A stretch of 64,000 nucleotides of DNA. It comes from Octopus vulgaris. Taxonomy: Eukaryota. Numbering within the stretch: position 1 is the first letter of the stretch; the number at the start of each line of letters is the position of its first letter. Of this stretch, positions 44,605-47,847 are shown piece after piece. Position numbers: made by a program. Location of the stretch: the NCBI GenBank assembly GCA_951406725.2, contig OX597828.1, positions 76,074,001-76,138,000 of the forward strand. Reading direction: 5' to 3'.

Positions 44605-45129
44605 ATGTATAAGGATGAAAAGGGACACACGAGTTGATATATATGAAAAAACAAGTCAAGACAGAAAATGCTAAAATAATTTTATAAAGAACATTTCAGT
44701 ACCGGTTTCGGTCATTTGAGACCTTTTCAACTGTAACAATGAAAAAATTCAATTTAGAAAAATTAAAAGAAAAGTTATTTGAAAAGAATATTTGTATAGT
44801 GTTCAAATATAAGTGGCATTTTCCTTGTTTCTGCCTTTCTCTGTCTCTCTTGTTTACTCTTGTGGGTTTAAGGTTCATGTGAATTCTTGGTAGGGAAGAG
44901 GAAGGAGGAGGAGGGGGGAAGGGGAGGAAGAATTTGGGATTGCCTTGATTGTCGTTGGTCTGTGGTGGCTAGCAGTTCCTGCTGTTCAATTCATGAAAAT
45001 ATTTCTATTGAAAGGTTTGTTTATATAATTTGCATAGGTGTTATACTAAAAAGTATTAGTGATAAAGTTAGGAAGAGGAGGGGGGAGAAGAAGAAGAAGA
45101 AGAAGAAGAAGAAGAAGAAGAAGAAGAAA

Positions 45130-45176
<47 letters not shown>

Positions 45177-47847
45177 TAAAACATATGCATATATTTATCT
45201 CTAAGCTTAGCTTGTTTCTTTTTGAGTTCTTCAAGTAAAGAAAGAAGTTCAGTATCAGCAACATCAAAAGCAGTTTGCCCTGCATTGTTTTTTGAGTCCA
45301 TATCACAGAAATGTTCAGCTAATATTTTGCAAGCTCTTTCCTGGCCCCAGTGAGCTGCTGCATGAAGAGGAGTCCAACTATCTGAGTCTTTGATATTTAC
45401 ATTAGCTTTTGCTTGGTTTAATAAATGCATAACTTTCATATAGCCCATTGCTGCTGCTACATGATGAGCAACAGCACCTGTTTTTGCATGAGGCCGCTCT
45501 GTCACACAATCGGAATTTAACCATTGGTTAGCATCAGAAAGCATCATTTCTTCCTCTTCTAGTCGTGCTGCTTCAGCATCCACACCTTGGCGATTCATTT
45601 CTTCTTGAAGCAACTTTTCCATTTTGGCTTCTTCACATATATCAAGAGGAAGATCGCCATCATTGTTAACAGCAGCTATATTGGCACAGGTGCTGATAAG
45701 ATATTGTGCAATGTCATTAAAGCCACATGAAGCTGTAGCATGAAGAGGTGTCCAACCTTCATTATCACAGACATCAACATCAGCACCATTAGCAACAAGA
45801 AACTTCACCATGTCAATTTTGTCATCAATACATGCCTGGTGTAGAGCGGTAAGCCCATCCACATTGGCGGTGTTAATATCTGCTCCTCGAGCCAACAGTT
45901 TTATCACTTCGTCTTTATCTCCACTAGAACACGTTGCTAAAAAGACACAACCATCCTGAAAATTAACTCTTTTAGGTCGGTCTCGAACGCCAATCGATTC
46001 CCTATTTGTATCAGAGTCCGCCCAACGTTTCAATTGTTGGTTCCTTCTTGCACAGGCAGTTGCCTTATTATCATCCGCCATGGCAGCAAACTCAAAATAA
46101 TGTTAAGTCTCTTGCGAAATCTCGCCAGTTCACGTCGGAAGCTGTCCAGGGAACGTGTAAGAGAGAGAGAGGGGGAACAGCTAGATACATACATGTATAT
46201 ATACACACATATATGAGTACAGGACACCAAAAAAACGTCGAACACAATGAGAAACGAAAACATAGATACAAACCCAAGGAACTGGGCATTTTTCTTAAAC
46301 AACAAAAAAAAAAAATAGAGTACAGGACAAATAACACAAGGAAAAAACCCCTTCTTCAGGCGCCATGGTTTCATCTACTCTACGTTTCGAAGGTGAAGGC
46401 GAGACGTATCTTCGATAGAAACTTTCCTTCCTGCGAAAAGCAAATCAAATAAAATTTGAGATCTTTTCGCAGAGGGGTAAAAATGGTAACAAAAACAGGA
46501 CAGTAACGACAGTACAAAATAAGCAGTAAAAGACAGGACAAGGCAAATAACAAGACAAGAAGGGCTGTTAAGCCGAACGAAAAAAAGTATTACGAACGCT
46601 ATTTCTGTGGACGGCGAAGGGAGCAAAGAAAATTGCCGTCAGAGGTGACTCCAGGTCAGCAACGTCACTCGAGCTTATGACAGATTTTGCATACCAGCTC
46701 GAAGAATTTCACGTCTTACCTCAATATCTGTAGCCCCAAACGGCTCCATGTTCATATCTAGCACTATATCTTTCTCCATTTCTAACTTAAGAGTGAAAAT
46801 AAAGCAACCCTGGAAAACGCAACAGATCTTTACACACAGACGCACAGAATAATCGCAATCAAATAACAACAGCGGAGTACATAACAGCGATCTGACTGTT
46901 GCCTGTACTCTTGAGAAGAGAGGCCAGTTAGCCTTTTAAACCTACCAAGCTCGTTCGTATTAGACCGGGTTGCTGGATAATTTTTCGTTTCTTTAAGAAT
47001 ATTATGGACGGAAACATTTTATAGATTGGAATTTACATCCTAATCTCTATGGAAATTAATTGTTTCAAGAAAACATTAAATTTTGCTTACTTTTAATTGT
47101 TACGATTATAATTAACAACTCGGGCTGTAAGTTCTGAGCCTGAGTCTGGCGCGTGTGAACGATGTCGAGAGAACATCTGCTACGAATGATATATTTTGAC
47201 ACAGGGCACCTCTAAGACGACCGCCAGACAATGAACGAAAATAGATAAACTGCATCCGCGCTGAGTAAAAGAAGCACAAGTTATTGGCTACAATTACACA
47301 CTTGAAGTCAGTGTTGGCAGAAATTAAATCAGCTTGAATATACATGTTCCAGTTACTAAAGTTTGTACCTGGAGTCGCCACTGATATATATATATTCAGT
47401 GGTGTCTGCTCGTCGGAGGTCAGGTGTGAGCAGAGATGAAAGGAAGACTTCGAACTTCTGTGTACACACTCATGCCGTAATATTTATGATTTAGTGGCTT
47501 ACAAATTTAACCATATCGATTATTGTTAGTGAAGGTGACGTTTGTCTTGATGTGAAAAGGTCCTTGAATATGAGTTGTTTTAAGGATGTTGAATAAAACA
47601 CCACCATTTCTGGAGATGAACTATTAAAACCCCATAGAATTCTTCTTAACACATGGCTATGATGCTCCCCCAATCAGAGATGCACATATCATCAGCCACT
47701 ATGTGACATATTCAACTGGTTATAGTCAAACAACTGACAGGCAGATCTGTGGTATTGAGCAGACTATTTGCTGTAGTCCATCTTTTGTACCATGTCAGGA
47801 CATGGTACAGAGGCCATGTGAGCCAGTGCCTGGTACTGCATCAGGGA

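What the first reader, a model, noticed from the sequence alone, without database searches (positions are those of the whole stretch)
45068..46081. Retrocopy encoding almost exactly the deregulated N-terminal ~300-aa MYPT1 module
Seen: an uninterrupted 296-codon frame from the native ATG with MyPhoNE, RVxF and all ankyrin repeats, ending just after LEELKKKQ. Established: full MYPT1 is about 1000 aa and multi-exonic. The N-terminal ~300 aa binds PP1 but lacks the inhibitory ROCK sites (human T696/T853) and the leucine zipper, and such fragments (e.g. Drosophila MbsN300) act as constitutively active. Caveat seen: changes at conserved ankyrin positions (AHHVAAAMGY vs ALHVAAAKGY, DSWTPLH vs DGWTPLH, TCANI vs xGANI) suggest early pseudogenisation. 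Inference: if expressed, a natural ROCK-insensitive myosin phosphatase subunit or PP1 sponge.
Basis: partly seen in the sequence, partly recalled or inferred. Interest (0 to 1): 0.7.

Follow-up and report, generated by a model that had tools for sequence, protein, structure and literature searches.

The report
Truncated MYPT1 retrocopy in octopus
An octopus genome carries an intron-less, cut-short copy of the first 296 codons of the myosin phosphatase targeting subunit gene; it is most likely a decaying processed pseudogene, which is an ordinary thing to find.

Summary
On the minus strand, 46081..45194 encodes 296 codons that match the PP1-binding N-terminal module of MYPT1/PPP1R12A without a gap (chicken MYPT1 1-299, E=2.7e-120). 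The frame has no stop there. It runs on for 41 junk codons through (TA)n and (TTC)n microsatellites to a TAA at 45068-45070.

The closest proteins are the 1083-aa PPP1R12A of Octopus sinensis and O. vulgaris (282 of 296 identical). Nothing matching parental residues 297-1083 lies anywhere in the 64 kb.

Two exon-1 fragments from cephalopod contigs stop matching after Gln82 and then read 'V…', as a GT donor would. The window reads straight through that point, so at least this intron is missing.

The copy carries 11-12 private replacements against 1-2 in the parent lineage (P=0.013 and 0.002). Three of them fall on columns invariant in 28 MYPTs, which is what chance placement would give. They are also more radical than the differences between orthologues. 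An open frame is expected in about half of neutral histories.

No poly(A) tail or firm target-site duplication was found. Expression and dN/dS could not be tested.

Verdict: a 3'-truncated processed pseudogene. Low interest.

The parts
45194..46081 (-). Codons 1-296 of a PPP1R12A/MYPT copy: the native ATG, the MyPhoNE-type and RVxF-type motifs, and the whole ankyrin-repeat module. It runs uninterrupted.
   Evidence: 1s70_B, E=2.7e-120. tblastn gives 95.3% identity over residues 1-296 of the O. sinensis parent. Motifs were checked.
45834..45837 (-). Junction of codons 82 and 83 (…LHQ|ACI…). Cephalopod genomic exon-1 fragments leave the coding sequence here, but the window has no intron.
   Evidence: P0244 (98% identical) and P0270 both match up to 45836 and then read 'VNLS…' and 'VS'. 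The window instead continues with parental residue 83.
46082..46174 (-). Sequence upstream of the ATG that looks like copied parental 5'UTR.
   Evidence: The tblastn alignment of P0270, whose ORF starts upstream of its own ATG, extends to 46174. The 8 codons before the ATG match best (HYFEFAA against HFFEFAA), and the match is weak further up. The true 5' limit is unknown.
45068..45193 (-). Non-homologous tail of the ORF: 41 codons and a TAA stop, made mostly of two microsatellites.
   Evidence: Tandem Repeats Finder reports 45130-45169 with period 2 (20 copies) and 45086-45128 with period 3 (14.3 copies). No part of parental residues 297-1083 is found here. The nearest GT lies 11 nt past the end of homology.

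Best explanation
This is a 3'-truncated processed copy (retrocopy) of the octopus PPP1R12A/MYPT mRNA, sitting in repeat-rich DNA. A spliced transcript of the parent was reverse-transcribed and inserted. This happened in the Octopus vulgaris/sinensis lineage after it split from O. bimaculoides. The copy took along some 5'UTR and the first 296 codons, but none of the central region, the inhibitory phosphorylation region or the C-terminal coiled coil. Since then it has collected amino-acid changes without regard to conservation, so it behaves as a pseudogene and makes no working protein. Its open frame is a matter of youth. Shown here: the homology and its limits, the missing intron after codon 82, the accelerated and unselective replacements, and the microsatellite tail. 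Inferred: the RNA-mediated mechanism, the time of origin and the lack of function.
For: (1) Identity and extent. 282 of 296 residues are identical to O. sinensis and O. vulgaris PPP1R12A, with 94% to O. bimaculoides and 86-88% to Argonauta. tblastn of three full-length parents and P0161 against the whole window finds only the 45194-46081 region; every other hit has E>=0.94. That leaves 45 kb downstream and 18 kb upstream with no further exon.
(2) Missing intron. P0244 (80 of 82 identical) and P0270 are ORFs from short unnamed contigs. Both match up to Gln82 and then diverge, starting with Val (GTN), as read-through of a phase-0 GT donor would. The window continues with parental residue 83. In human PPP1R12A the first coding exon also ends before residue 88, and the gene has 26-32 exons (PMC9367544, passages).
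(3) No way to splice onward. There is no GT at the end of homology; the nearest is 11 nt later in a poor context.
(4) Relaxed constraint. Tajima-type counts give 11 private changes in the copy against 2 in the parent (outgroup O. bimaculoides, P=0.013), and 12 against 1 (outgroup Argonauta, P=0.002). Three of the 14 differences hit the 78 columns invariant in 28 MYPTs, where 3.7 are expected by chance, so there is no depletion (P=0.47). None of the 27 positions that differ among the octopod orthologues hits a column invariant in the 24 non-octopod MYPTs (79 of 296 columns), against the same 3 of 14 for the copy (Fisher P=0.034). Mean BLOSUM62 is -0.36 for the copy against +0.63 and +1.08 for the orthologues (Mann-Whitney P=0.004). 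In the tree the copy's end branch is 0.042, against 0 for each parent.
(5) Lineage. The copy shares C132, R249 and E256 with the sinensis/vulgaris parent as against O. bimaculoides and Argonauta.
(6) Open frame. In 4000 neutral simulations it took on average 16.1 substitutions to reach 12 replacements, and 49.6% of runs hit a stop or lost the ATG. About half therefore stay open.
(7) Reverse transcriptase is at hand. The same window holds a decayed non-LTR element with an RVT_1 domain.
Against: No poly(A) tail follows the copy. The candidate target-site duplications are weak: 14 of 15 nt at 44714 and 46454, and 11 nt at 45048 and 46582, both within reach of chance, and neither adjoins an A-run on the right strand. 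Copies made by LINE machinery are usually cut short at the 5' end, whereas this one is complete at the 5' end and cut at the 3' end, and that remains unexplained. Only one intron site could be tested, and the evidence for it comes from unnamed contigs of other cephalopods, not from the parent locus of this genome. The species of the window is not established, so paralogy is inferred rather than shown. The parental nucleotide sequence was out of reach, so there is no dN/dS. The frame is intact and both PP1-docking motifs are unchanged. The statistics rest on only 14 differences.
Confidence: 0.72

Rival explanations
1. One reading: a young, expressed retrogene whose product is a free N-terminal MYPT module. 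It would bind PP1 but lack the ROCK-regulated sites and the coiled coil, and so act as an unregulated myosin phosphatase subunit or a PP1 sponge.
For: The frame is open from the native ATG. The MyPhoNE-type and RVxF-type motifs are identical to the parent's. All of the ankyrin module is present. Part of the 5'UTR came along. The equivalent engineered fragment, MbsN300, is called constitutively active in flies (PMC7132776, passages). NCBI predicts N-terminal-only isoforms of 341-346 aa in four dipterans, so such forms are not absurd.
Against: The replacements do not avoid conserved columns. Among them are L206H, K212M and A50T at invariant sites, and I222N and G235S, which bring in residues seen in none of 28 MYPTs. 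The rate is accelerated. The C-terminus would be 41 residues translated from length-unstable microsatellites. An open frame is expected half the time under neutrality. A retrocopy does not bring its promoter with it. Among 5.8 billion clusters, no protein of 162-518 aa is more than 81% identical to it. This is only weak evidence, because it is unknown whether transcript assemblies of this species are in that set.
Confidence: 0.07
2. It is the real first coding exon of a live gene, either the PPP1R12A orthologue of an unsampled octopus or a chimeric gene, and is spliced to exons outside the window.
For: The native ATG and 5'UTR-like sequence are present. Octopus introns can be long, so exons could lie beyond the 45 kb of window downstream (general knowledge).
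Against: The octopod exon 1 ends at Gln82, but this frame runs through that point. There is no GT donor at the end of homology. The changes at invariant ankyrin positions are unlike those seen in true orthologues, where 0 of 27 differing positions fall on invariant columns. No further PPP1R12A exon lies in the 64 kb.
Confidence: 0.04
3. It is not a retroposition event: either a DNA-level duplication from a parent that had lost its introns, or cDNA that entered the assembly by mistake.
For: There is no poly(A) tail and no clear target-site duplication. The 3' truncation is odd for LINE-mediated copying.
Against: Contaminating cDNA of the same animal would match its functional parent, yet this copy has radical changes at invariant sites. 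It is embedded in 64 kb of contiguous repeat-rich genomic sequence with no N. The intron after codon 82 is present in two cephalopod fragments, one of them 98% identical to the copy.
Confidence: 0.05

Closest known systems
PPP1R12A / MYPT1 of Octopus sinensis and O. vulgaris (1083-aa isoforms; NCBI names as listed)
   Same: Residues 1-296 are 95% identical, including both PP1-docking motifs and the complete ankyrin module.
   Different: The copy lacks residues 297-1083, so it has no PF15898 C-terminal domain and none of the central region. It lacks the intron after codon 82. It has 14 differences from the parent, 11-12 of them private to the copy; three (A50T, L206H, K212M) fall on invariant columns and two more (I222N, G235S) bring in residues never seen there.
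Processed pseudogenes / retrocopies in general
   Same: It is an intron-less copy of a spliced mRNA. It sits away from any other exon of the gene, carries some UTR and evolves faster than its parent.
   Different: No poly(A) tail or clear target-site duplication was found. It is truncated at the 3' end, not the 5' end.
P0161, 'LOW QUALITY PROTEIN: protein phosphatase 1 regulatory subunit 12A-like' of O. bimaculoides (195 aa)
   Same: It is a second, more decayed copy of the same N-terminal region, on a contig other than the parent's (55.6 Mb against 192.5 Mb). It differs from its parent at 26 of 195 residues, 6 of them at invariant columns.
   Different: It groups with the O. bimaculoides parent (support 93/86) and shares no derived residue with the window copy. 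It is therefore an independent event and not the orthologue.
Drosophila MbsN300 (engineered N-terminal 300-aa fragment of Mbs)
   Same: It covers the same part of the protein. MbsN300 is described as a constitutively active form (PMC7132776, passages).
   Different: MbsN300 is a laboratory construct with wild-type sequence. The octopus copy has damaging-looking replacements and a microsatellite-coded tail, and nothing shows that it is expressed.

Membership tests
MYPT / PPP1R12 family (PP1-targeting N-terminal module) | MyPhoNE-type motif near the N-terminus | tested here: met
   RNQQLKRW at residues 13-20 aligns to residues 10-17 of 1s70_B. PMC9367544 places MyPhoNE at residues 10-17 of human MYPT1. 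The consensus pattern I used is recalled.
MYPT / PPP1R12 family (PP1-targeting N-terminal module) | RVxF-type PP1-docking motif | tested here: met
   KRVNF at residues 37-41 aligns to the chain's KVKF at 35-38.
MYPT / PPP1R12 family (PP1-targeting N-terminal module) | Complete ankyrin-repeat domain collinear with a solved MYPT1 N-terminal fragment | tested here: met
   One ungapped stretch, query 7-294 on 1s70_B 4-291, E=2.7e-120. Ank families are found in Pfam.
MYPT / PPP1R12 family (full-length, regulated subunit) | Central region with inhibitory phosphorylation sites and the C-terminal PF15898 / coiled-coil domain | tested here: not met
   The parents carry PF15898. The ORF has only Ank families, and no match to parental residues 297-1083 exists in the window.
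MYPT / PPP1R12 family (functional member) | Family-invariant residues retained | tested here: not met
   A50T, L206H and K212M fall on columns invariant in 28 MYPTs. G235S falls on a column 93% conserved.
Processed pseudogene / retrocopy | Parental introns absent | tested here: met
   Met for one site only. The boundary after Gln82 seen in P0244 and P0270 is bridged in the window. Other introns could not be tested because no octopus genomic DNA was within reach. Gene models of Biomphalaria (P0341), Lottia (P0123) and Sinocyclocheilus (P0129) end in ways that hint at further introns.
Processed pseudogene / retrocopy | 3' poly(A) tail | tested here: not met
   Homology is followed by (TA)n and (TTC)n, with no A-run on the coding strand.
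Processed pseudogene / retrocopy | Flanking target-site duplication | tested here: inconclusive
   Two short direct repeats flank the copy: 14 of 15 nt at 44714 and 46454, and 11 of 11 nt at 45048 and 46582. By my rough estimate both are within reach of chance in AT-rich sequence. The flanks are not repeated elsewhere in the window.
Processed pseudogene / retrocopy | Intron-bearing parent gene elsewhere in the same genome | not testable with these tools
   The species of the window is undetermined. Full-length parents are known only as proteins of O. sinensis, O. vulgaris and O. bimaculoides.
Functional retrogene | Purifying selection on the copy | tested here: not met
   This was tested by proxy only, since no parental nucleotide sequence was available for dN/dS. 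The replacements are not depleted at conserved columns (3 observed against 3.7 expected), they are more radical than those between orthologues, and the rate is accelerated.
Functional retrogene | Transcription and translation of the copy | not testable with these tools
   No RNA-seq or proteome data could be reached. The only related observation is that no matching protein appears in the search.

The most novel reading that the evidence does not exclude
A lineage-specific octopus retrogene, born from a 3'-shortened PPP1R12A transcript, that is still translated into a free PP1-binding ankyrin module. It would be a natural counterpart of MbsN300 that lowers myosin light-chain phosphorylation, or titrates PP1, independently of Rho-kinase. 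The changes in ankyrin repeats 5-6 would then retune PP1 binding and would not be decay.
Probability: 0.05. Interest if true: 0.55.

Novelty: new member of a known kind. Interest (0 to 1): 0.15.

Why it matters
As it stands it matters little. It is one more processed pseudogene, useful mainly so that gene annotation does not call it a short MYPT gene. Two points may interest people working on cephalopod genomes. The same gene has given rise to independent N-terminal copies in two Octopus lineages. This copy also has an unusual shape, complete at the 5' end and cut at the 3' end with microsatellites where the tail should be, and that may bear on which reverse transcriptases make retrocopies in these genomes.

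Tried and rejected
(1) I looked for the rest of the gene in the window with tblastn of the 1083-aa parents and found nothing beyond residues 1-296.

(2) I looked for retroposition hallmarks. The direct-repeat scan gave only two short, chance-level candidates. Reading both flanks by eye showed no A-run. Self-BLAST of the flanks showed that they are not part of a repeat family present elsewhere in the window, apart from an element at 47555-47882 that is too far away to matter. The boundaries therefore could not be fixed from an intact copy of a disrupted element.

(3) I considered that both flanks carry similar TA / TG / polypyrimidine tracts and might be a long duplicated target. I dropped the idea because such tracts occur throughout the window.

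(4) I considered that the copy ends at a parental exon boundary, which would point to an intronically polyadenylated transcript. The only hint is a fish model (P0129) that diverges about 4 codons before the copy's end. Nothing could be checked in octopus, so this is left open.

(5) I considered P0161 as the orthologue of this copy. I rejected that, because it groups with the O. bimaculoides parent and shares no derived residue with the window copy.

(6) I tried to learn the species from other genes in the window. The ORF list shows only repeats and transposon remnants, so the species is not determined.

(7) Literature. A search for octopus or cephalopod together with retrocopy terms listed no paper on this (listing only). 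A search for PPP1R12A/MYPT1 pseudogene or retrocopy phrases found a single paper, which mentions PPP1R12BP (PMC10638347, listing only).

(8) I ran no structure prediction or complex prediction. Such models are insensitive to a handful of point changes and would not alter the verdict.

Nothing in the window was taken for human.
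Full report
**What is there.** The window holds an ATG-to-TAA open frame of 337 codons on the minus strand, at 46081..45068. Its first 296 codons (46081..45194) are a MYPT/PPP1R12 N-terminal module. Against the Protein Data Bank the best match is chicken MYPT1 1-299 (1s70_B). The match is one ungapped stretch, query 7-294 on chain 4-291, with E=2.7e-120. The next ankyrin proteins are at E=1.7e-79 or weaker, and 444 distinct chains matched in all. 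Pfam reports only ankyrin families.

A MyPhoNE-type match (RNQQLKRW, residues 13-20) and an RVxF-type match (KRVNF, residues 37-41) are present. They align to the positions that a paper passage gives for these motifs in human MYPT1 (PMC9367544; alignment). The motif patterns I used are recalled.

One correction is needed. The frame does not end just after LEELKKKQ. Homology ends at codon 296 (…KKKQAKLRDK), and the frame then stays open for 41 further codons. Those codons are simply the translation of an (AT)20 array at 45130-45169 and a (TTC)14 array at 45086-45128.

**Whose gene it is.** A search of proteins longer than the query scored 8000 candidates, found 7936 with E<=0.001 and listed 120. 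It puts the copy next to the PPP1R12A isoforms of Octopus vulgaris and O. sinensis (95%), then O. bimaculoides (94%), then Argonauta hians (88%). Other molluscs are at 66-70%. The window therefore comes from an octopus, and nothing in it was taken for human.

The parents are 1083 aa long and carry the C-terminal PF15898 domain. I ran tblastn of three full-length parents and P0161 against the whole 64 kb. It finds only residues 1-296, at 45194-46081, and every other hit has E>=0.94. There are thus 45 kb downstream and 18 kb upstream without any further PPP1R12A exon. The window has no N.

**Is it intron-less relative to its parent?** No octopus genomic DNA was within reach of the tools, so I used exon-sized proteins as a substitute. 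A search of proteins shorter than 162 aa scored 1733 candidates, found 1496 with E<=1e-5 and listed 120. It returned P0244 (93 aa, 80 of 82 identical to the copy) and P0270 (119 aa, 83% identical). Both come from short unnamed contigs.

Both match the window up to Gln82 (coordinate 45836). After that they read VNLSATFSFTY and VS respectively, instead of the parental ACIDD…. A valine codon (GTN) right at the break is what read-through of a phase-0 GT donor gives. The window itself reads …LHQ|ACIDD… straight through. At least this intron, which is present in an octopod 98% identical over exon 1 and in a more distant cephalopod, is therefore absent from the copy.

This fits human PPP1R12A. Its first coding exon ends before residue 88, intron 1 exceeds 21 kb, and the gene has 26-32 exons (PMC9367544, passages). 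Gene models that end oddly in Biomphalaria (P0341), Lottia (P0123) and a fish (P0129) hint at further introns inside the module, but these are hints only.

P0270's ORF starts upstream of its ATG, and it aligns to the window as far as 46174. The match is strong over the last 8 codons (HYFEFAA against HFFEFAA) and weak beyond them. So some 5'UTR was copied too.

**Is it under constraint?** The copy differs from the O. sinensis/O. vulgaris parent at 14 of 296 residues; the two parents are identical to each other here.

- With O. bimaculoides as outgroup, 11 changes are private to the copy and 2 to the parent (P=0.013). With Argonauta as outgroup the counts are 12 and 1 (P=0.002).
- In an alignment with 28 MYPTs from molluscs, arthropods and vertebrates, 78 of 296 columns are invariant. 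The copy's changes hit 3 of them (A50T, L206H, K212M), where 3.7 are expected by chance. They hit 4 of the 114 columns that are at least 90% conserved, where 5.4 are expected. There is no depletion (P=0.47 and 0.31).
- I222N and G235S also bring in residues seen in none of the 28.
- By contrast, the 27 positions that differ among the octopod orthologues include none invariant in the 24 non-octopod sequences (Fisher P=0.034). Those differences are also milder: mean BLOSUM62 is +0.63 and +1.08 against -0.36 for the copy (Mann-Whitney P=0.004).
- In a maximum-likelihood tree of 15 rows the copy sits inside the octopod clade (support 100/100). Its end branch is 0.042, while each parent has 0.

STCANI is the parental state in O. 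sinensis and O. vulgaris.

The copy shares C132, R249 and E256 with that parent, as against O. bimaculoides and Argonauta. It keeps E248 where the parent now has D. This dates its origin to the vulgaris/sinensis lineage after the split from O. bimaculoides (an inference).

**Does the open frame mean anything?** I simulated neutral point substitution on the 888 bases until 12 residues had changed, in 4000 runs. This took 16.1 substitutions on average, and 49.6% of runs gained a stop or lost the ATG. About half of neutral histories would therefore still be open. Indels, which were not modelled, would lower that share somewhat. The intact frame is thus no evidence of selection.

**What does not fit a textbook retrocopy?**

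- There is no poly(A) run after the copy.
- The direct-repeat scan gives two short flanking repeats: 14 of 15 nt at 44714 and 46454, and 11 nt at 45048 and 46582. By my rough estimate either could be chance in this AT-rich DNA, and neither adjoins an A-run on the coding strand.
- The flanks are not copies of a repeat found elsewhere in the window, so no empty-site comparison was possible.
- The copy is complete at the 5' end and cut at the 3' end, the reverse of the usual LINE-made product.

Possible reasons for this shape are a short or internally primed transcript, template switching by a reverse transcriptase whose own tail is a microsatellite, or a later deletion. It is also possible that the (TA)n tract grew out of an A-rich tail. 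None of these could be tested.

There is no GT at the end of homology. The nearest lies 11 nt further on in a poor context. So the frame cannot simply be a first exon spliced onward.

**Surroundings.** The rest of the window is microsatellites and transposon remains. Of 10 ORFs scanned against Pfam, 3 had hits and 7 had none:

- RVT_1 at 55.9 bits, at 59365-59826.
- zf-RVT at 25.1 bits, below its cut-off of 27.5, at 57863-59407.
- GIY-YIG at 29.4 bits, at 16451-17134.

No host gene was recognised, and the species could not be fixed.

**A second copy elsewhere.** The search among proteins of 162-518 aa scored 4127 candidates, found 2762 with E<=0.001 and listed 120. It contained no protein more than 81% identical to the copy, so the ORF itself is not in that collection. 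The only octopus entry was P0161, a 195-aa 'LOW QUALITY PROTEIN … 12A-like' of O. bimaculoides. It lies on a contig other than the parent's. It differs from its parent at 26 of 195 residues, 6 of them at invariant columns. It pairs with the O. bimaculoides parent (support 93/86) and shares no derived residue with the window copy. It is therefore an independent, older decayed copy.

[quoted passage not shown] NCBI predicts N-terminal-only isoforms of 341-346 aa in four dipterans. The concept is therefore sound. For this locus, however, every test I could run points to relaxed constraint. The product would also end in 41 residues coded by length-unstable repeats. Expression, dN/dS and PP1 binding stayed untested.

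**Literature.** A search for octopus or cephalopod with retrocopy terms listed nothing on this gene (listing only). A search for PPP1R12A/MYPT1 pseudogene or retrocopy phrases found one paper, which mentions PPP1R12BP (PMC10638347, listing only).

**Verdict.** This is a young, 3'-truncated processed pseudogene of octopus PPP1R12A (confidence about 0.7). It is a new member of a known kind and of low interest. The deregulated-subunit reading is possible but unlikely (about 0.05-0.07).

Noticed in passing
P0161 (O. bimaculoides protein; not in the window): A second PPP1R12A-like N-terminal copy, flagged 'LOW QUALITY PROTEIN', lies on a contig other than the parent's. It is 13% diverged from its parent, has two one-residue gaps, and arose independently of the window copy. 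The same gene has thus been copied at least twice in Octopus.
   Followed up: partly
window 57860-60702 (-): A decayed non-LTR retrotransposon reading frame is broken into three stop-to-stop pieces of 515, 154 and 291 aa. RVT_1 scores 55.9 bits in the middle piece. zf-RVT scores 25.1 bits, below its cut-off, in the 3' piece.
   Followed up: partly
window 16448-17134 (-); also 6760-7182 (+) and 38208-38606 (-): A 228-aa ORF has a GIY-YIG nuclease domain (29.4 bits), as in Penelope-like elements (that link is recalled). Two shorter ORFs look similar by eye but had no Pfam hit.
   Followed up: partly
window 47555-47882 (+), 56488-56858 (-), 57456-57572 (+): A short interspersed repeat occurs three times in the window at 75-82% identity. 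The first copy runs into a pure (ATT)n array of more than 600 bases, from 47848 to about 48470.
   Followed up: no
window 1946-2560 and 3473-4394: Very long AAT/ATT-type trinucleotide arrays translate as runs of N, I, L or Y in all frames. There are many TA/TG/TC microsatellites throughout, and GC is as low as 0.25.
   Followed up: no
hits P0163, P0156, P0157, P0164 (Diptera; not in the window): NCBI predicts MYPT isoforms of 341-346 aa in four flies that hold only the N-terminal module plus about 50 residues. N-terminal-only forms may therefore exist naturally through alternative 3' ends.
   Followed up: no
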